A stretch of 64,000 bases of DNA from Spirochaetota bacterium (GTDB lineage Bacteria > Spirochaetota > UBA4802 > JAFGJZ01): the NCBI GenBank assembly GCA_027858855.1, contig JAQIBV010000038.1, forward strand, positions 31,966 through 95,965. The letters run 5' to 3'. This document shows, piece by piece, positions 3-64,000 of this stretch. Numbering within the stretch: position 1 is the first letter of the stretch; every line of letters starts with the position of its first letter. Position numbers and translations under genes: made by a program. A model generated the notes under the pieces. The model saw only the letters and a list, made by a program, of their open reading frames with translations, was not told the origin of the DNA and made no database searches.

Positions 3-1214
3 TTGCTTGGTGGAACACGAGCATTGATTATGGGCGCAAGAACTAATAGTGGCCTTCGTTCAAAATCATGTGTAACAAAAGGTCGCGAGCTGCTACGTAT
101 GGCCTACCGTACTGCAACACCTCAAATTCTAATTTACGGAGACAACTGGATCCGTCGCTCGACATCGGGCACACATCTGCGAGCCTATTATGATTTCATG
201 AACGAGCTGACAAGCCGAAGTTCGCATCGTATTCATATTGTTACATCAGTCGCGGCTCTTCAGAATTTTGAGGTAACATCTTGTGCCGATGCAGTAATAT
301 TCGTTAAGAAAGAGGCTCTTTCTGCGTTGGATGAGAAATTTGCTTCGCAAAATGCTTCATTCGTTGTTGAGAATATGGAAGAGGCCTTCGATGTTTCTGC
401 ACGGATACTGACTCTTCTTGAAAACAGAAAAACTGATGCCGGCAAACCGGGTAGTGGAAAGATCACAGTGCCTGACGACAAGGGAACGCCGTTTGATATT
501 ATCGATTCGGTTATTACGCCAGCATTTGATGATGCAAGCTTTGTAGAGTTTTATGCTCCGTTTAACCAGCCGAGTGGCCCGAATCTTGTAACCGGTTTGG
601 CTCGCATTGATGGTGAAACTGTCGGTATTATTGCCGATCAGCCTAAGATTAAGGGCGGAGGAGCCGATGCATTGGGAACTGAAAAGTTCCGGGTTTTTAC
701 ACGGTTCCTGAATAGTAAAGGTATTCCGCTTGTAATGCTTTCGAACTCATCCGGTTTTGTTCCTGGCTCACAGCAGGAGCGTTACAGAATACAGGCTATC
801 GGTGCCGACTCACTTGACGAGAATGTTCTGGGTGAGATTCCGGTTGTATCAGTTGTTCTTAATCAGAATTATGGCGGTCGTCAGATTCATGCGTTTAGTA
901 AGTCGCTACGTCCGGGAATCTATTATACGGCACGTCATAATGCGACCCTTGCGGTAATGGGAGCCACGGCGGCCTATGATCTGCTTGGTGCCAAGCATTA
1001 CAACAGGTTTGTAGCAGAAGGTAAGCAGGCCGAGGCAGATGCCTATCAGAAGAAGTTTATGGATGATTATCTGACTAAGGCGATGGCCGAAAATGACGCA
1101 ACTGAAACTGGTGTAGTTGACTCTGTTTTCAAAGATGTTTCGGGATTACGTTCACACATTGCCGAATCACTTATAAAGGCGAAAAGCGAGTGTGAAACAG
1201 CGTTCAAAAATTAG
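3..1214 (+). CDS. Acyl-CoA carboxylase carboxyltransferase (beta) subunit / methylmalonyl-CoA decarboxylase alpha family, C-terminal ~400 aa. Probably 5'-partial: the ORF opens at a TTG at the window edge.
   Basis: Carboxyl-transferase domain signatures are visible (…ARIDGETVGIIADQP…GGGADALGTEKF…). The length, 403 aa against ~510 aa for the family, suggests the N-terminus lies upstream of the window. Confidence 0.6.
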   Translation: MLGGTRALIMGARTNSGLRSKSCVTKGRELLRMAYRTATPQILIYGDNWIRRSTSGTHLRAYYDFMNELTSRSSHRIHIVTSVAALQNFEVTSCADAVIFVKKEALSALDEKFASQNASFVVENMEEAFDVSARILTLLENRKTDAGKPGSGKITVPDDKGTPFDIIDSVITPAFDDASFVEFYAPFNQPSGPNLVTGLARIDGETVGIIADQPKIKGGGADALGTEKFRVFTRFLNSKGIPLVMLSNSSGFVPGSQQERYRIQAIGADSLDENVLGEIPVVSVVLNQNYGGRQIHAFSKSLRPGIYYTARHNATLAVMGATAAYDLLGAKHYNRFVAEGKQAEADAYQKKFMDDYLTKAMAENDATETGVVDSVFKDVSGLRSHIAESLIKAKSECETAFKN

Positions 1215-1505
1215 ATAATTTGAATGTGAAATTATTTTGTTCCCCGCCTTCGGCGGTGGAACAAACAGATTTGTAAAACAGCTTTAATTAAATAGTTTGA
1301 ACCTGAAATTCTTTTGTTAGCCGCCTTCGGCGGTGGAACAAACAGATTTGTAAAACAGCTTTTATATTAAATAGTTTGAATTTGAAATTCTTTTGTTCGT
1401 CGCCTTCGGCGGTGGAACAAATAGATCAGTAAAACAGCTTTTATATTAAATAGATTGAACGTGAAATTATTTTGTTCCTCGCCTTCGGCGGAAGGGAGCA
1501 AATTA
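1215..1505. repeat. Tandem array of about 3.5 units of ~78 bp (starts 1221, 1298, 1377, 1456). Each unit carries a GC-rich hairpin, ttgttccccgcc-ttcg-gcggtggaacaa (first copy 1237–1264).
   Basis: Read directly from the sequence. The whole unit including the linker is conserved, not just a short repeat. The last copy is degenerate (ccttc-ggcg-gaagg). The array sits between convergent genes, with stops at 1214 (+) and 1594 (−). Confidence 0.85.
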
Positions 1506-59610: not shown

Positions 59611-60087
59611 AAAAAATCCTGATTATTAGAATGTTTATGCTTTGGTCGCTTGATATTGGTCATATTTAAAAATGAAGATACAGTATAAATAAATGAATTT
59701 GGTGCTGATTATAAGTGTTATGCGCTTTAGAAAAGGCATCGTTCTATATAAAAGATAAGATAATATTTATCTATAAAAATTACAAGTCATTTTGGGATAT
59801 TAAGAAGAAAAATTCCGTAGATATTGTTATAAATTAGTTTTAGATAAAAACTAAGATTATCGATGCTTCGAGCCAGTCGCTATTTGATTGTCATAGCCAA
59901 ATTTATAAAGGCACGTGAATAACAGAAAATATAAATCATCTAGATGTGATGGTAGAGCCGCTCATACTTTAGTCGTAATTAGTATTTGTAATCTCGGCCT
60001 AAAATAATTTGATTATTATTCGTGTTGTTATAGATATGTTGTAATAAAGAAATTAGAGACGACAATAAACAACCGGAGTGTAAATAT

Positions 60088-60975
60088 ATGAAAACTTTTA
60101 AAATGCTTATTTTAATGTCTGTTTTAACTATTGTTTCCTGTTCAAAAGGACCTTCCTCGTTGGTTAACAAAATTGTTTCAGATTCTGGTGTGCCAGAAAT
60201 ACGGCTATATAAGGAGTTCCATTCTGACAAGTTTACTATGGATAAGCTTGAGGCTCATATTTTTTATCCGGAAGGTTATGATGCAAATAGAGAAGAGCCA
60301 TATAAAGTAGCTGCCTATTTTCATGGAGGTGGTTGGAGTCAGGGATCTCCCACAGAGGGCTATCCATATGCCGAGCATTTTGCGTCTCTCGGTTTTGTTG
60401 CAGTCTCTTTTGAATATCGTCTGGTGGACTATGTAAACATCACCGGAATTGAATGTGTAAAGGATGTTAATTCGGCAATTAGATGGCTTCGTACCTATAA
60501 TAAAGAGTTAAATATTGATTCTGATCATATTGCGGCTGTCGGGCTTTCGGCTGGTGGCCATTTGGTAATAGCGAATTCGATGTTTCCCGATATAATTGAA
60601 GAGGGTGAAGATTCGAAAATCAGCTCAGTTCCGAACATTGTTTGGGCATTTGCTCCGCCGGTTAGTTTTAAAAACAATAATTTTTATATGTCAGTTAGTC
60701 TTGACAGCGAACAGGTGTTACAGATTTGTCCAATGACAAACATTAAGCCTGGAAATGTTCCTGTCTATATTATTCATGGAGACCAGGATAGCGTTGTCTA
60801 TTACGATGATTCTGTCGCGTTTGTAAAAAAGATGCAAGAGACCGGTAATGAGAGTGAATTGTGGACGATCAAGGAAGGTAAACACAGTTCTTTCTGGGAA
60901 AACCAGGAACACATGGATTATGTATACACTATTATTAAAGATCAGCTGAAAAAAATTAACTGGATTAAACCATGA
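60088..60975 (+). CDS. α/β-hydrolase-fold esterase/lipase lipoprotein (HSL-like)
   Basis: Lipobox (TIVSCSK), oxyanion HGGGW, nucleophile elbow GLSAGGH. Confidence 0.75.
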   Translation: MKTFKMLILMSVLTIVSCSKGPSSLVNKIVSDSGVPEIRLYKEFHSDKFTMDKLEAHIFYPEGYDANREEPYKVAAYFHGGGWSQGSPTEGYPYAEHFASLGFVAVSFEYRLVDYVNITGIECVKDVNSAIRWLRTYNKELNIDSDHIAAVGLSAGGHLVIANSMFPDIIEEGEDSKISSVPNIVWAFAPPVSFKNNNFYMSVSLDSEQVLQICPMTNIKPGNVPVYIIHGDQDSVVYYDDSVAFVKKMQETGNESELWTIKEGKHSSFWENQEHMDYVYTIIKDQLKKINWIKP

Positions 60976-61270
60976 TTAAACCATGATTAAAGGATTAAAC
61001 CATGATTAAAGGATTAAAGGATTAAAGGATTAAAGGATTAAAAGATTAAAAGATTAAAAGATTAGAAGATTAGAAGATTAAAGGATTAGAGAATCAAGCA
61101 AGAGGAGCAAGAGGAGCAAGAGAAGCAAGAGAAGCAAGAGAAGCAAGAGAAGCAAGAGAAGCAAGAGAAGCAAGAGAAGCAAGAGAAGCAAGAGAAGCAA
61201 GAGTATTAAAGGATTGCCGTGATTAGAGAATCAAGAAATCAAGAAAATCGTGAAAATCAAGGTTCAGACA
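60962..61270. repeat. Composite microsatellite block: (a/g)gattaaa ×~11, then gaagcaaga/ggagcaaga ×~12, then aatcaaga / aatcgtga motifs. Begins inside the last codons of the esterase gene.
   Basis: Direct reading. A second, shorter copy with the same unique linker (gagtattaaaggattgccgtgattagagaatcaag) is at 61652–61855. Confidence 0.9.
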
Positions 61271-61280
61271 ATAAAAGGAA

Positions 61281-61658
61281 ATGATGAAGCACGAAGAATT
61301 AACATATATGATTATCGGATGTGCTATGGAGGTTCACAAGCATTTGGGTAATGGCTTTCAGGAAGTCGTTTATCAACGCGCATTAGCCATTGAAATGCAA
61401 ATGCAGGGAATCGAGTATAGTAGAGAATTTGTAATGTCATTGCAATATAAGGGATATGATATTGGCACCCGAAGAGTAGACTTTTTTGTCGAAAATACAA
61501 TTATGGTTGAAATCAAAGCGTTGATAAATCTTGAAGATGTTCATTTGGCACAAGCCATGAATTATGTTGAAGCATACAACCTTGAAATAGGTTTGCTGAT
61601 AAATTTTGGGGCAAAAAGCTTGCAACATAAAAGGGTGCACAATAACAGTAAGGATTAA
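61281..61658 (+). CDS. GxxExxY-family protein (PD-(D/E)xK-like small protein)
   Basis: G-F-Q-E-V-V-Y motif and …EIKALINLEDVHLAQAMNYVEAYNLEIGLLINFG…, closely matching recalled family members. aaaagga RBS. Confidence 0.8.
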   Translation: MMKHEELTYMIIGCAMEVHKHLGNGFQEVVYQRALAIEMQMQGIEYSREFVMSLQYKGYDIGTRRVDFFVENTIMVEIKALINLEDVHLAQAMNYVEAYNLEIGLLINFGAKSLQHKRVHNNSKD

Positions 61659-61855
61659 ACCATGATTAAACCATGATTAAAGGATTAAAGGATTAGCATG
61701 ATTAAAGAATCAAGCATGTCGAGAGGAGCAAGCGGAGCAAGAGTATTAAAGGATTGCCGTGATTAGAGAATCAAGAAATCAAGAAATCAAGAAATCAAGA
61801 AATCGTGAAATCGTGAAATCGTGAAATCTAGAAAATCGTGAAAATCAAGGTTTAA
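61652..61855. repeat. Second copy of the composite microsatellite block (ccatgattaaa, ggattaaa, gagcaag units, shared unique linker, aaatcaag ×4, aaatcgtg ×3)
   Basis: Direct repeat of 60962–61270 with different unit copy numbers. Flanks the GxxExxY gene on the 3' side. Confidence 0.9.
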
Positions 61856-62300
61856 ATTTCGTATAATCAACAATTAATAGGGCTTCTCCCTGGTCAATGT
61901 CTTGACATTTTTATGTTTTTAAGGCATATTTAGTTGGTACATACTTCTTCCGAGTTGCAAAATTCAAACCCCGGTAAAACGGGCTCACAAAATGCCTACA
62001 CTCATCAGCCACATGCTGGTTAACCGATCTGACTTTAATCAAACAAGTATTTCTTAAAACTGAAGTGAACATTGCTTTTGCTCACGATACTTTTAGCAGT
62101 TCAGTACAGCTGCCTTTGTACAGCAGGCCGAAGTCACAGTGCAAAAGGGTACTCAATTCTGCTATTGAAGCTGAACGCTGGCAAATTCTTCTTGTTTGAA
62201 AAATATTCTGCGTTGTGTGAGTGAAATCAATAGCTGGAATAAAAGCTTACCTATTCAGAATGTTTGACAGGTTGTTCTCAATAATAAAATCGGGGTATCC

Positions 62301-64000
62301 ATGAAAAGTCGTTTGAAATACAGTCATGATCGCAAAATCAATCCACTACTCCGGGGAAAGAAATTCTCAGGTAAATATGCTGGGGGCTCTCAGCCCTTAC
62401 GCTCTGAACTTTTTAGTGCCGATCAGATGGATAAGCATGGGCGAATAATTGCCGAAGCCCATGATATTATGCCTGGAATCTCACGCAAGCAACACCTTCT
62501 GGTACGCCTCGCTGAAAACGAGATAATTTTACTGGATGTACACCGCATCCTCAGTGAAGCAGTCAGAAAAAAGCGTCGCATTACACCAGCGGCTGAGTGG
62601 CTGCTGGATAACTTCTACCTAATTGAAGAGCATATTAAAACCGGCAGACGACATTTACCTAAGAGTTACAACCGCGAATTGCCGCATCTTGCAACGGGAA
62701 AGTCAGCGGACCTTCCACGGGTGTACGACATTGCCATGGAGATGATATCGCATGGTGATGGTTGGGTTGATCCGCATAACCTGTCGCGATTTATCTCGTC
62801 CTATCAAAGCGTTTCTCCATTAAAGTTAGGCGAGATATGGGCGATACCAATTATGCTGCGTCTTACTCTTATTGAGAATTTGCGGAGGGTGGCTGTGCTG
62901 ATAGCCGCCGATATGACAGAGCAGGATCTGGCCGGATACTGGGCCGATCGAATACTTGAAGTTGTAGAGAAGGATCCGAAAAACCTTATTCTGACCGTTG
63001 CAGAGATGGCTCATTTGAAGCCACCTCTTAATAGTGCCTTTGTCGCAGAACTTTCCCGCCGGCTTCACGGACAGAGTGCAGCCCTTGCTCTTCCCTTAAC
63101 CTGGATAGAGCAGCAACTCTCTGAAGCAGGCCTTACAGTGAATCAGCTGGTGCAATCTGAAATACAGCAACAGGCGGCAAACCAGGTTTCAATGAGCAAC
63201 ACAATCGGAAGCCTGCGCTTTTTGAACAGCATGAACTGGCATGATTTTGTTGAATCTTTAAGTGTTATAGAGCATACCCTCAGCGAAGATCCCGCAGGCT
63301 ATTACAGAGGAATGGATTTTGCTACCCGTGACCTGTACCGCCATGTGATTGAAAAAGGCGCTAAAAAAAGCCGCGGTAATCTGACTGAACATGCAGTGGC
63401 AAAGAAGGCCATTAGGCTTGCCCGCAAAGGAGCTGGCAGCCATGGAACAGCTGACCGCAGAGCCCATGTAGGATATTACCTGATTGACAAGGGGTATCGT
63501 GAGTTCAAGAGCATCATAAAGATGCGTTATTCACCGGCAGCAGCACTCAAAGAAGCGGGTACACTCATAAAATTATCTCTTTTTATTACGTGTATAATTA
63601 TTTTTGCCGCGATATTCACATATGGGATTGCGACAAAATTCTATTCCGGTGGAATTGATGGCTTTGATGGCTGGACGCTCGGACTGTTTGCTGCGATCAC
63701 CTTTGTCTGCGCACTTCATCCAGCAATCGCATTAACGAACCGGCTTGCGGCTCTTATTGTTGAGGCCGACCTGATTCCTCGGATGGATTTTTCAAAAGGC
63801 GTTCCGCACGGTTTTCAAACACTTGTTGTCGTTCCCTCGATGATTACCAGTTCTGAAAATATTGCAAACCTCATAGAGGCGCTTGAGGTACGTTTCCTCG
63901 CAAACCGTGATGAACACATCTACTTCGGGCTTCTTACGGATTTTAAAGACGCCAGCAGTCAGACCCTTCCAGAGGACGAGGCGTTGATAAACCTTGTTGC
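62301..64000 (+). CDS. Cyclic β-1,2-glucan synthase (NdvB/ChvB/Cgs, GT84), N-terminal 566 aa. Runs off the 3' window edge. Not in the supplied ORF track.
   Basis: Open frame from the ATG at 62301 to the window end. Hallmark N-terminal motifs (…RRITPAAEWLLDNFYLIEEHIKTGRRHLP…LPRVYDIAMEMISHGDGWVD…LKLGEIWAIPIMLRLTLIENLRRVA…). TM segments, then …TLVVVPSMITS…LEVRFLANRDEHIYFGLLTDFKDA… (start of the GT84 domain). Confidence 0.65.
   Translation, partial: MKSRLKYSHDRKINPLLRGKKFSGKYAGGSQPLRSELFSADQMDKHGRIIAEAHDIMPGISRKQHLLVRLAENEIILLDVHRILSEAVRKKRRITPAAEWLLDNFYLIEEHIKTGRRHLPKSYNRELPHLATGKSADLPRVYDIAMEMISHGDGWVDPHNLSRFISSYQSVSPLKLGEIWAIPIMLRLTLIENLRRVAVLIAADMTEQDLAGYWADRILEVVEKDPKNLILTVAEMAHLKPPLNSAFVAELSRRLHGQSAALALPLTWIEQQLSEAGLTVNQLVQSEIQQQAANQVSMSNTIGSLRFLNSMNWHDFVESLSVIEHTLSEDPAGYYRGMDFATRDLYRHVIEKGAKKSRGNLTEHAVAKKAIRLARKGAGSHGTADRRAHVGYYLIDKGYREFKSIIKMRYSPAAALKEAGTLIKLSLFITCIIIFAAIFTYGIATKFYSGGIDGFDGWTLGLFAAITFVCALHPAIALTNRLAALIVEADLIPRMDFSKGVPHGFQTLVVVPSMITSSENIANLIEALEVRFLANRDEHIYFGLLTDFKDASSQTLPEDEALINLV

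What the first reader, a model, noticed from the sequence alone, without database searches (positions are those of the whole stretch)
60962..61855. GxxExxY-family (PD-(D/E)xK-like) gene embedded between two copies of a composite microsatellite block
The ~305-bp block is built from three different short tandem repeats: an 8-mer (a/g)gattaaa ×~11, a 9-mer g(a/g)agcaaga ×~12 and the 8-mers aatcaaga and aatcgtga. It starts inside the last codons of the esterase gene and ends 10 bp before the GxxExxY start. A second copy with identical unique linker sequences but different repeat numbers follows the gene's stop. The left edges coincide with the stop codons of both genes (…aaaccatga / …ggattaa). This looks like a small selfish or mobile cassette (nuclease-fold gene plus VNTR arms), or a recombination hot-spot. 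As I recall (not checkable here), this family is multi-copy per genome. The VNTRs could drive phase variation of the gene's promoter region.
Basis: partly seen in the sequence, partly recalled or inferred. Interest (0 to 1): 0.65.

Follow-up and report, generated by a model that had tools for sequence, protein, structure and literature searches.

The report
Nuclease gene cassette with repeat-expanded arms
The microsatellite blocks on both sides of this small nuclease gene are expanded copies of a conserved ~95-nt inverted-repeat element that brackets this gene's close relatives in Bacteroidota and a few other phyla, usually at stop/start junctions of restriction-modification operons; I found no published description of this pairing.

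Summary
An intact 125-aa GxxExxY (PF13366) nuclease gene at 61281-61658 lies between two composite tandem-repeat blocks. The blocks share an exact 38-nt left edge and an exact 35-nt linker, and each left edge supplies the stop codon of the gene before it.

The blocks are not locus-specific oddities. They match a conserved imperfect palindrome: a left arm GTCTGAACCWTGATT plus GATT every 8-9 nt, and a right arm of AATC units ending AATCAAGGTTCAGAC. This palindrome flanks 65/78 and 62/76 of the gene's close relatives. Those relatives mostly sit co-oriented at stop/start junctions of type I restriction-modification operons. The palindrome also occurs alone at many gene ends.

The window copy is the most expanded of 54 loci with a scorable repeat: 15+2 GATT units and a 12 x 9-mer array on the left, 10 AATC units on the right. 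It is unstable: a sister assembly differs only by a 16-nt, two-unit indel across 2.8 kb.

An 88%-identical esterase orthologue lacks the insert, and DNA homology stops at the block edge.

Protein and arm termini are far more conserved than synonymous sites, which are near saturation.

Best reading: a selfish, historically mobile nuclease cassette whose arms are protein-binding arrays prone to replication slippage. The mobility mechanism is inferred. The phase-variation idea is unsupported.

The parts
60088..60975 (+). Host esterase gene (BD-FAE / Abhydrolase_3 family, 295 aa). Its last codons (..W-I-K-P-stop) come from the left arm of the left block.
   Evidence: ORF; Pfam BD-FAE E=3.3e-27. 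Orthologues L083 and L084 (88% and 85% aa) end ..KWIE*, and DNA homology to the window stops at 60965.
60963..61091 (+). Left block, expanded left arm. It holds 15 GATT units: the 11-mer GATTAAACCAT (an iterated arm terminus) followed by the 8-mer GATTAAAG/GATTAAAA/GATTAGAA. The TGA at 60973-60975 is arm position 11-13, one of the two canonical stop positions.
   Evidence: TRF; GATT positions and 8/11-nt spacing; weak matches to left-arm positions of the palindrome profile (60966-61030); stop-position classes.
61096..61203 (+). 9-mer array (AAGCAAGAG) x12 in the middle of the left block. The right block has only two units (61728, 61737). Canonical palindromes have no counterpart.
   Evidence: TRF score 202, 97% matches; unit positions. 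This is the highest tandem-repeat score among the 54 loci with a scorable repeat (median 39).
61201..61235 (+). 35-nt linker, copy 1. It corresponds to the inner left-arm units (GGATTGCCGTGATT) plus the left-to-right arm junction of the canonical palindrome.
   Evidence: Exact duplicate at 61741-61775. It lies inside the best profile match, 61205-61272, E=2.7e-12, model positions 26-104.
61229..61272 (+). Left block, right arm with the canonical number of units (4 AATC units), ending in the canonical terminus AATCAAGGTTCAGAC-AAT, 8-11 nt before the GxxExxY start codon.
61281..61658 (+). GxxExxY / PDDEXK_3 gene (125 aa), intact. It carries G25-x-x-E28-x-x-Y31, E38, D67, E77-x-K79 and Q91-x-x-x-Y95. 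The fold is a minimal Cas4/RecB/lambda-exonuclease-like PD-(D/E)xK domain.
   Evidence: TIGR04256 E=8.5e-39; PF13366; residue conservation in a 58-sequence alignment; AlphaFold2 pLDDT 95.6; top Foldseek PDB hits Cas4 SSO0001, lambda exonuclease, LHK-Exo and MGME1.
61653..61708 (+). Right block, left arm with 6 GATT units. Its first 38 nt are identical to the start of the left block. The TAA at 61656-61658 is arm position 4-6, the other canonical stop position, and ends the GxxExxY ORF.
   Evidence: profile match 61667-61708, E=7.2e-6.
61741..61775 (+). 35-nt linker, copy 2.
61769..61857 (+). Right block, expanded right arm with 10 AATC units (AATCAAGA x4, AATCGTGA x3, AATCTAGA, AATCGTGA, then the terminus), ending AATCAAGGTTTAAAT. 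This variant terminus is complementary to the variant outer left terminus ATTAAACC. It is the site of the 16-nt (two-unit) length difference from the sister assembly L001.
   Evidence: TRF; units; profile matches 61745-61798 and 61811-61853; indel located at window 61768/61769.

Best explanation
The locus is one copy of a widespread cassette. I found no description of it in Rfam, PADLOC or the open-access literature I could search.

What it is:
- A tiny Cas4/RecB-like PD-(D/E)xK nuclease gene (GxxExxY clade) lies within or between copies of a ~95-nt imperfect palindrome.
- Each arm of the palindrome has a conserved 15-18-nt terminus (ATTGTCTGAACCWTGATT / AATCAAGGTTCAGACAAT) plus about four GATT (left) or AATC (right) motifs spaced 8-9 nt apart.

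Shown:
- The cassette sits co-oriented at the 3' ends of host genes, most often at stop/start junctions of type I R-M operons.
- The left arm supplies a stop codon to whatever ORF runs into it, and the right arm ends just before the next start codon. Insertion therefore costs the host little, and the promoterless gene can be read from host transcripts.
- Gene-less palindromes, internal-deletion derivatives and local tandem arrays of the element exist.
- In this window the cassette replaced the last codon(s) of an esterase gene, in the 'palindrome-gene-palindrome' configuration.
- One length variant of the arrays exists in a sister assembly.

Inferred:
- The nuclease binds and cuts at the arm motifs on DNA. 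Repair or recombination at these sites copied the cassette and the gene-less palindromes to new gene ends in the past, and keeps generating local duplications and deletions.
- Because the arms are already 8-9-nt periodic, replication slippage expanded them into microsatellites here (15 GATT and 10 AATC units, plus a 9-mer array).
- The microsatellites are a by-product, not a switch.
For: Family architecture:
- The left terminus lies within 250 nt upstream in 65/78 relatives, and the right terminus within 250 nt downstream in 62/76. Background is 0.11 per kb.
- Configurations: L[g]R 25, LR[g]R 12, L[g]LR 11, LR[g]LR 6. The last is the window's type.
- In simple elements the 41-nt left arm abuts the ATG and the right arm overlaps the stop codon.
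- A profile built from 78 gene-less palindromes hits the 64-kb window only in the two blocks (best E=2.7e-12).

Placement:
- Flanking ORFs are co-oriented in 63/73 (upstream) and 62/70 (downstream) cases.
- They are mostly HsdM/HsdS/HsdR, RhuM and type III Mod/Res genes.
- The upstream stop codon falls at arm positions 4-6 or 11-13. The downstream ATG lies 2-5 nt after the right terminus in 15 loci.

Insertion evidence:
- The esterase orthologue has no insert and homology ends at window 60965.
- An uninterrupted hsdM/hsdS junction (L034) can be compared with a filled one (L041).
- By my reading of the flank listings, there are at least eight different insertion sites.

Derivatives:
- In L043, four ~190-nt internal-deletion copies stand beside one full element.
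- When sampling by the right terminus, 15 of 120 contigs carry the gene next to it, and 56 terminus matches have a left terminus 80-160 nt upstream, i.e. are gene-less palindromes.

Selection:
- Codon positions 1+2 are 85% identical versus 47% at position 3.
- Arm-terminus positions 4-15, apart from the variable position 10, show the consensus base in 81-97% of elements.

DNA-level protein sites rather than a hairpin:
- Sense and antisense fold about equally well (z -5.4 and -5.9).
- G.T and A.C mismatches are equally frequent (165 vs 170).
- Internal arm positions show no own-partner covariation (own 4.16 vs non-own 3.62, 426/2000 permutations reach the observed value).

Nuclease: catalytic residues are conserved and the fold is confident.

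Slippage:
- The window has the highest repeat score of the 54 loci with a scorable repeat (202 vs median 39).
- A 16-nt indel with 0 SNPs in 2.8 kb separates it from L001.
Against: - No direct evidence links the nuclease to the arms.
- More distant family members (38-47% identity) have no arms at all, so the protein can exist without them.
- There is no consistent target-site duplication. Some sites have none; others have a 5-23-bp, or by my reading of the flanks ~40-bp, duplication of the host junction.
- There is no sign of recent transposition. Synonymous sites are near saturation, two copies in the same genome share only 71.5% DNA identity, and many loci share old insertion sites that seem inherited with the R-M operon (plus my reading).
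- Tandem arrays such as L043 arose by local duplication with the flanking junction included, not by transposition.
- The strong enrichment in R-M operons could mean a host-related function.
- The Cas4/RecB-like fold more often implies DNA-end processing than sequence-specific cutting.
Confidence: 0.55

Rival explanations
1. The arms work in RNA. They would form a long-range stem or local hairpins in the operon transcript that insulate, process (as RNase III does for Correia elements or rRNA intervening sequences) or translationally couple the inserted ORF. The palindromes would then be REP-like mRNA elements spread by some other agent, with the nuclease gene only a frequent passenger.
For: - Elements are co-oriented with host transcription (63/73 and 62/70).
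- Gene-less palindromes also show an orientation bias (24 vs 12 upstream neighbours co-oriented).
- The left arm abuts the ATG and carries the upstream stop 28-35 nt before it, an arrangement suited to termination-reinitiation.
- Palindromes fold far better than shuffled sequence (z about -5).
- The gene has no room for its own promoter.
Against: - There is no strand asymmetry in stability (30 of 46 fold better as antisense).
- G.U-type and A.C-type mismatches are equally common.
- No compensatory covariation appears at variable arm positions.
- The A/T polymorphism at arm position 10 leaves that position Watson-Crick paired in only 27% of elements.
- No Rfam family matches.
Confidence: 0.2
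2. The gene is a host-beneficial accessory of restriction-modification or defence loci, for example a DNA-end-processing partner. It would be kept by selection, and the arms would be its regulatory or operon-junction module. The window copy would be a stray member outside an R-M context.
For: - About 85 of 143 flanking ORFs are R-M subunits, plus RhuM and AlbA_2.
- Purifying selection on the protein is very strong.
- Many insertion sites look old and shared (my reading).
- There is weak Cas4-like similarity.
Against: - The window copy and many right-terminus loci sit beside unrelated housekeeping genes.
- The PADLOC scan gave no match beyond a weak Cas4b hit (E=0.0088).
- Insertions truncate or duplicate host gene ends, and one interrupts RhuM.
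- The gene is multi-copy with decayed derivatives, which is typical of selfish DNA.
Confidence: 0.15
3. The microsatellites are a contingency (phase-variation) switch: changes in repeat number alter expression of the nuclease gene or its neighbours.
For: Repeat number differs between assemblies of the same strain-level population. Both metagenome contigs break inside the arrays.
Against: - The arrays lie outside the ORFs, so unit changes cannot shift a reading frame. The first unit already supplies the stop codon.
- No promoter-like site above shuffle expectation lies in or next to the left block, though the scan uses a sigma-70 consensus.
- The observed indel is downstream of the gene.
- None of the 52 relatives with a scorable repeat shows comparable expansion: only the window and its sister assembly L001 score 100 or more. 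Expansion is therefore not a family property.
Confidence: 0.07

Closest known systems
REPIN-RAYT systems (REP doublets forming hairpins plus a REP-associated tyrosine transposase); from my own knowledge of Nunvar 2010 and Bertels & Rainey 2011. Related survey papers surfaced.
   Same: - Roughly 100-nt imperfect palindromes scattered at gene ends.
- An associated small DNA-cleaving enzyme whose gene is itself flanked by the repeat arms in inverted orientation.
- Gene-less palindromes outnumber gene-bearing copies.
   Different: - The enzyme is a 125-aa PD-(D/E)xK (Cas4/RecB-like) domain, not an HUH/Y1 transposase.
- The gene is multi-copy and found in several phyla.
- The arms are built from 8-9-nt periodic GATT units.
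- The elements sit on stop/start junctions and donate stop codons.
Free-standing homing endonuclease genes (for example phage T4 seg/mob genes); own knowledge.
   Same: A small promoterless nuclease ORF wedged, co-oriented, between conserved host genes, present at some orthologous sites and absent at others.
   Different: - Homing endonuclease genes are not bounded by conserved inverted repeats and do not leave palindromic gene-less derivatives.
- No evidence here of recent homing or co-conversion tracts.
Bacterial MITEs co-transcribed within operons (Neisseria Correia/NEMIS, ERIC, BOX, RUP); own knowledge.
   Same: Terminal inverted repeats, about 100-150 nt, inserted close to gene ends and transcribed with them, with variable internal modules.
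   Different: - Those have defined short target duplications or known parent IS elements.
- Here the only candidate 'parent' encodes a minimal nuclease domain rather than a recognised transposase.
- Target duplications are absent or unusually long (5-23 bp measured, ~40 bp by my reading of one class).
MIRU-VNTR loci of mycobacteria; own knowledge.
   Same: Tandem repeats located in intergenic regions of operons, with stop and start codons overlapping the repeat ends, and strain-to-strain copy-number variation.
   Different: MIRUs are 40-100-bp units without an associated nuclease gene or palindromic architecture. Here the units are 8-11 nt and derive from the arms of a palindrome.
Integron gene cassettes with attC sites; own knowledge.
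   Same: Promoterless ORFs each followed by an imperfect palindromic site. 'Site-gene-site' arrays could arise by recombination between sites.
   Different: I made no search for an integrase. The right terminus GTTCAGAC does not fit the attC core GTTRRRY. The arms are periodic GATT arrays.
Cas4 / RecB / lambda-exonuclease nuclease domains (PDB 4ic1, 1avq, 3syy, 5zyv)
   Same: Predicted fold and motif set: E, D, ExK and QxxxY.
   Different: - Only about 125 aa, roughly 60% the length of the structural matches (194-228 aa).
- By my reading, it lacks the Fe-S cluster cysteines of Cas4.
- TM-scores are only about 0.5 and sequence identity 9-14%.

Membership tests
GxxExxY protein (TIGR04256) / PDDEXK_3 (PF13366) | Full-length match to the family HMM above the curated cut-off | tested here: met
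   TIGR04256: 132.5 bits against a cut-off of 35, residues 6-119 on profile positions 1-115/116. PF13366: 129.1 bits against a cut-off of 22.
GxxExxY protein (TIGR04256) / PDDEXK_3 (PF13366) | G-x-x-E-x-x-Y motif and PD-(D/E)xK catalytic residues | tested here: met
   In 58 diverse family members: G25 53/58, E28 55/58, Y31 58/58, E38 58/58, D67 57/58, E77 52/58, K79 56/58, Q91 51/58 and Y95 52/58. All are present in the window protein.
PD-(D/E)xK nuclease fold | An alpha-beta-beta-beta-alpha-beta core resembling solved nucleases | tested here: met
   AlphaFold2 pLDDT 95.6, pTM 0.88, element order H-H-E-E-E-H-E-E. Foldseek PDB probability 1.00 to Cas4 SSO0001, lambda exonuclease and LHK-Exo, with TM about 0.5.
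PD-(D/E)xK nuclease fold | Demonstrated nuclease activity and a known substrate | not testable with these tools
   No solved structure by sequence search. The three papers that mention the family name, of which I read the passage in one, and the 2012 PD-(D/E)xK survey list no function for it.
Palindrome-armed GxxExxY cassette (defined here) | Left terminus and GATT units upstream, AATC units and right terminus downstream, same orientation as the gene | tested here: met
   Regex hits at 60963 and 61653 (left) and at 61269 and 61857 (right). nhmmer profile hits fall only in the two blocks. The LR[g]LR configuration is shared with 6 other loci.
IS / MITE-type transposable element | Terminal inverted repeats | tested here: met
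   The conserved 15-18-nt termini are inverted copies of each other. At positions 4-9 and 11-15 the consensus base is present in 81-97% of elements.
IS / MITE-type transposable element | Target-site duplication of fixed length | tested here: inconclusive
   Some sites have none (L015, L017, L041). Others duplicate 5-23 bp of the host junction (L004 23 bp exact, L045 18 bp, L016 22 bp), and by my reading of the flanks about 40 bp in the 'IANLI' class.
IS / MITE-type transposable element | A recognised transposase family | tested here: not met
   The only ORF is a 125-aa PD-(D/E)xK domain, with no transposase Pfam or NCBIfam match.
IS / MITE-type transposable element | Near-identical copies within one genome (recent transposition) | tested here: not met
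   L018 and L074, on the same Marinilabilia contig, share 71.5% DNA identity and 47.5% at third codon positions. Only tandem local copies are near-identical. Only one same-genome pair could be scored.
REPIN-RAYT system | An HUH/Y1 RAYT transposase flanked by REPs | tested here: not met
   The flanked gene is PF13366, not a Y1 transposase.
REPIN-RAYT system | Genome-wide co-occurrence of the palindromes with the enzyme gene | not tested
Only local loci were available.
Integron cassette / attC | attC core GTTRRRY and a nearby IntI integrase | not tested
   By direct reading, the right terminus GTTCAGAC does not fit GTTRRRY. I made no systematic search for integrases.
Phase-variable simple-sequence contingency locus | Repeat tract inside an ORF or a promoter spacer, so that unit changes switch expression | tested here: not met
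   The arrays lie between ORFs and the first unit already provides the stop codon. Promoter-like sites do not exceed shuffle expectation (6 found vs 10.0 +/- 3.4). Caveat: the scan uses a sigma-70 consensus that may not suit this organism.
Phase-variable simple-sequence contingency locus | Repeat-number polymorphism within a population | tested here: met
   Window vs L001: a 16-nt indel (4 vs 6 AATCAAGA units) and 0 mismatches in 2823 nt.

The most novel reading that the evidence does not exclude
The ~465-bp unit (41-nt left arm, 125-aa PD-(D/E)xK nuclease ORF, ~45-nt right arm) is a previously unrecognised, minimal autonomous mobile element.
- Its nuclease would recognise the periodic GATT arrays.
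- It would target stop/start junctions of operons, especially R-M operons, sometimes with unusually long target duplications.
- It would have seeded a large family of REPIN-like gene-less palindromes in Bacteroidota.

If so, it would be smaller than the shortest insertion sequences I know of (~700 bp, from my own knowledge) and would rest on a new enzymatic basis for palindrome mobility.
Probability: 0.3. Interest if true: 0.85.

Novelty: new variant of a known kind. Interest (0 to 1): 0.62.

Why it matters
- PF13366/TIGR04256 is a large family: 15,570 clusters at 50% identity match at E<=1e-3. I found no known function for it.
- This locus led to a concrete, testable architecture for one major clade: a minimal Cas4/RecB-like nuclease tied to a conserved palindrome with periodic GATT motifs, sitting on operon junctions.
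- If the nuclease acts on the arms, this would be a second, enzymatically unrelated, REPIN/RAYT-like system. It would also explain a class of intergenic repeats and spurious low-complexity ORFs in Bacteroidota genomes.
- Practically, many of the contigs that carry these genes are short or end at the gene or in the arms. This suggests the elements break short-read assemblies. They also create VNTR-like arrays that could serve as strain markers.

Tried and rejected
- Exact search for the 27-nt core of the linker in the metagenome collection: 0 hits. The exact linker is lineage-specific.
- Rfam, at a permissive E-value on the locus and at gathering thresholds on six related loci and the whole window: nothing relevant.
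- PDB sequence search: no hit.
- PADLOC: only a marginal Cas4b hit, E=0.0088.
- PHROGs: one family of unknown function.
- First AlphaFold2 run with 35 near-identical sequences failed (pLDDT 47). It was replaced by a run on a diverse alignment.
- Hairpin hypothesis: position-locked pairing with shuffled partners and own versus non-own arm complementarity both showed no element-specific covariation. I therefore dropped a selected RNA or ssDNA stem as the primary model.
- Recent horizontal transfer as the reason for 75-92% protein identity across phyla: rejected, because third codon positions are only 47% identical.
- Automated empty-site search among about 200 fetched loci: only one useful pair, L041 vs L034 at 70% identity.
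- Literature searches for the family name, Pfam/TIGR accessions, arm sequences and REPIN/RAYT in Bacteroidetes: no description of this system.
- Viral contigs: a single locus, again between hsdM and hsdS. Phages are not an obvious vector.
Full report
**1.

Tandem Repeats Finder reports the following arrays:
- Left block: an 11-mer GATTAAACCAT x4.6 (60963-61010), an 8-mer GATTAAAG x12.6 (60985-61088), a 9-mer AAGCAAGAG x12.0 at 97% matches (61096-61203), and AATCAAGA x2.2 (61229-61246).
- After the gene: GATTAAACCAT x2.6, GATTAAAG x4, and AATCAAGA/AATCGTGA x8.2-8.5 (61769-61843).

The two blocks share sequence. The 35-nt linker occurs exactly twice, with no match in any shuffle. The first 38 nt of both blocks are identical.

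The esterase ORF (60088-60975) stops at the TGA of the first CCATGA. The 125-aa ORF at 61281-61658 stops at the TAA of GGATTAA, which opens the second block. That ORF is a full-length GxxExxY/PDDEXK_3 protein (TIGR04256 E=8.5e-39, PF13366 E=1.4e-37).

Two independent metagenome assemblies reproduce the parts they cover. Both of their contigs end inside the left block.

**2. The blocks belong to a conserved palindrome family**

Scanning one genome per species returned more than 530 close relatives of the protein. I analysed the best 80, which are 72-92% identical in amino acids. They come from many Bacteroidota and also from Fibrobacter, Cloacimonadota, Spirochaetes, Aminicenantes, a deltaproteobacterium and Marithrix.

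Their flanks carry a recurring element:
- The left arm (L) is GTCTGAACCWTGATT followed by GATT motifs every 8-9 nt.
- The right arm (R) is AATC motifs every 8-9 nt ending in AATCAAGGTTCAGAC.
- The termini are inverted copies of each other.

L lies within 250 nt upstream in 65/78 loci, and R within 250 nt downstream in 62/76. Background is 0.11 per kb. Writing [g] for the gene, the configurations are L[g]R (25), LR[g]R (12), L[g]LR (11) and LR[g]LR (6). The window has the last type.

In simple L[g]R units the 41-nt L arm abuts the ATG directly, and the ORF ends inside the R arm. The whole unit is about 465 bp.

I aligned 78 gene-less L+R palindromes of about 95 nt. The consensus is GTCTGAACCaTGATTnaaAgGATTanagGATTacCaTGATT...AATCAagnaAtcangtnAATCangnaAATCAAGGTTCAGACAA. 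The resulting profile hits the 64-kb window only inside the two blocks (61205-61272 at E=2.7e-12, 61667-61708 at E=7e-6, and others).

**3. What is special in the window**

Canonical arms have about 4 GATT and 4 AATC units. The window has:
- Left block: 15+2 GATT units, 4+1 AATC units and a 12-unit 9-mer array.
- Right block: 6+2 GATT units, 10+1 AATC units and two 9-mer units.

The expansions are in the outer arms. The variant outer termini (ATTAAACC... / ...GGTTTAAAT) are complementary to each other, whereas the inner R terminus is canonical.

Among the 54 loci in which a tandem repeat near the gene could be scored, the window has by far the highest score: 202, against 115 for its sister assembly and 90 or less for all others (median 39).

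The sister assembly L001 matches the window over 2823 nt with 0 mismatches, apart from one 16-nt indel: 6 versus 4 AATCAAGA units. The arrays are therefore length-polymorphic. The simplest cause is replication slippage on arms that are already 8-9-nt periodic.

**4. Where the elements sit**

- Flanking ORFs are co-oriented with the gene in 63/73 (upstream) and 62/70 (downstream) loci.
- The largest flank clusters are HsdM/HsdS (68 ORFs) and HsdR (11), followed by RhuM, type III Mod/Res and AlbA_2.
- The upstream ORF's stop codon falls preferentially at L positions 4-6 (14 loci) or 11-13 (7 loci), or directly before L. Gene-less palindromes sampled from metagenomes show the same preference.
- The downstream ATG is 2-5 nt after the R end in 15 loci.
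- The window uses both canonical stops: position 11-13 for the esterase and position 4-6 (TAA here) for the nuclease gene itself.

At several overlapping hsdM/hsdS junctions the overlap is duplicated on both sides of the element: 23 bp exact in L004, 22 bp in L016 and 18 bp in L045. Elsewhere the insertion simply cuts off the last codons. In L041 the last 12 codons of hsdM lie beyond the cassette, whereas L034 has the uninterrupted junction.

**5. Insertion in the window**

Esterase orthologues at 88% and 85% aa identity end ..KWIE*. DNA homology to the window runs from 60071 to 60965 and stops where the L arm begins. In L083 the downstream sequence has no block and no GxxExxY gene.

The cassette therefore replaced the last codon(s) of the esterase (..WIKP*).

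**6. Derivatives and abundance**

- In Ca. Parvibacillus calidus (L043), one full element is followed by four ~190-nt copies. Each retains L, a short leader, the last ~70 nt of the gene, and R. They are separated by 72-nt duplicated junction spacers, which points to local tandem amplification of an internal-deletion derivative.
- Other loci carry tandem runs of arms or palindromes: L040, L064 and L068.
Only 15 contigs have the gene next to the terminus. Fifty-six terminus matches are gene-less palindromes, and the rest follow ordinary housekeeping genes.
- The whole protein family has 15,570 clusters at 50% identity with E<=1e-3.
- Arms are clade-specific. Paralogues at 57-66% identity have variant arms with the same architecture. 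One relative at 51% has short arms. Relatives at 38-47% identity have none.

**7. Selection and age**

Among the 80 genes, codon positions 1+2 are 85% identical while position 3 is only 47% identical. Even the window's best matches reach 55-58% at position 3. Two copies on the same Marinilabilia contig share 71.5% DNA identity.

The high protein identity across phyla therefore reflects strong purifying selection over long times, not recent transfer.

Arm-terminus positions 4-15, apart from the variable position 10, show the consensus base in 81-97% of elements. The arm termini are thus far more conserved than synonymous sites.

By my reading of the flank listings, many loci share a few old insertion sites, for example ..FKELGYEI|..LDEEAEN|..IANLI| and ..GLAAYE*|. 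At least eight distinct sites show that insertion happened repeatedly. I found no evidence of recent bursts.

**8. DNA-level or RNA-level function**

Gene-less palindromes fold much better than shuffles, with mean z of -5.4 in sense. Antisense is equally good or better (z -5.9, with 30/46 more stable).

Three observations argue against a selected hairpin:
- G.T and A.C mismatches are equally frequent (165 vs 170).
- Each element's own L and R are no more complementary at variable positions than L and R taken from different elements. For gene-bearing elements the scores are 4.16 vs 3.62, with 426/2000 permutations reaching the observed value. For gene-less palindromes they are 2.31 vs 2.54.
- Arm position 10 is about half A, which creates the ATGA stop/start overlap but leaves that position Watson-Crick paired in only 27% of elements.

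These results fit arms that are inverted arrays of short protein-binding motifs. That resembles transposon ends with subterminal repeats more than a stem maintained for pairing.

The orientation bias and the stop/start arrangement show that translation-level constraints also shape the arms.

**9. The protein**

With a diverse alignment, AlphaFold2 gives pLDDT 95.6.

The best Foldseek PDB matches are Cas4 SSO0001, lambda exonuclease, LHK-Exo and MGME1, with probability about 1 and TM about 0.5.

The conserved residues E38, D67, E77-x-K79 and Q91-x-x-x-Y95 are, from my own knowledge of RecB/Cas4-type nucleases, the characteristic motif set of that group.

I found no solved structure, no match to any model in the PADLOC defence-system library beyond a weak Cas4b hit, and no literature on its function.

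**10. Interpretation**

Shown:
- The cassette architecture, its placement and its derivatives.
- Conservation of both the protein and the arm termini.
- The insertion relative to esterase orthologues.
- The window's exceptional, polymorphic expansion.

Inferred:
- The nuclease recognises the arms on DNA.
- Break repair or recombination at these sites moved the cassettes and palindromes in the past and still drives local duplication and deletion. The LR[g]LR form, for example, could arise by recombination between palindromes.
- The microsatellites are slippage by-products.

The last has the least support.

The system works most like a REPIN/RAYT pair or a free-standing homing-endonuclease gene. 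It fails the membership tests for both, because the enzyme family differs and the architecture differs.

Noticed in passing
window 1210-1500: A 79-nt tandem repeat x3.6 (89% matches). Each unit contains a G+C-rich hairpin with a TTCG loop (GTTCCCCGCCTTCGGCGGTGGAAC). It lies between a + strand ORF ending at 1214 and a - strand ORF ending at 1594, so it looks like stacked terminator-like hairpins. No Rfam match.
   Followed up: partly
window 62302-64000 (continues in L001 1140-9857): The downstream gene encodes a 2905-aa GH94/glycoamylase-type protein, similar to cyclic beta-glucan synthases. G+C rises from about 0.35-0.40 to 0.46-0.49 at its start, suggesting a compositionally foreign segment next to the cassette. 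In L001 it is followed by HTH_3 and HipA genes, whereas the esterase orthologue locus L083 has what look like HipA-type remnants directly after the esterase.
   Followed up: partly
L043 2915-5066 (Ca. Parvibacillus calidus CP058702.1): One full cassette plus four ~190-nt internal-deletion copies, separated by 72-nt chimeric duplicates of the hsdM-end/hsdS-start junction. A RhuM-like pseudogene region is also embedded. This is a compact record of repeated local duplication.
   Followed up: yes
L056 upstream ORF (hsdM, 717 aa): This HsdM carries an in-frame segment resembling a GIY-YIG nuclease domain (..YVLKCSDGSFYKGQTNDIHRRLKEHEKG..) near its C-terminus, just upstream of the GxxExxY cassette. 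A second selfish-looking nuclease module may be present in the same operon.
   Followed up: no
protein representatives P0154, P0170, P0178, P0180, P0196 and others: About 250-295-aa proteins contain two tandem GxxExxY domains (two matched stretches each). These are fused duplicates of the minimal nuclease domain.
   Followed up: no
L084 (ENA ERZ18242344 contig, 7013 nt): The contig carrying the 85%-identical esterase orthologue ends 1 nt after the esterase stop codon. This could mean a repeat or cassette also begins there in that organism.
   Followed up: no
L015 and L017: The cassette lies inside a RhuM-family gene (at ..GQDYFDAYEH|), and the central part of RhuM is missing. Not all insertions are harmless junction insertions.
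   Followed up: partly
L206/L207 and L208-L211: Distant GxxExxY genes (38-39% identity) have no arms. One sits 3 nt after a NifU-like gene. Another is a stand-alone gene between divergently oriented neighbours. The arm association is therefore clade-specific.
   Followed up: yes
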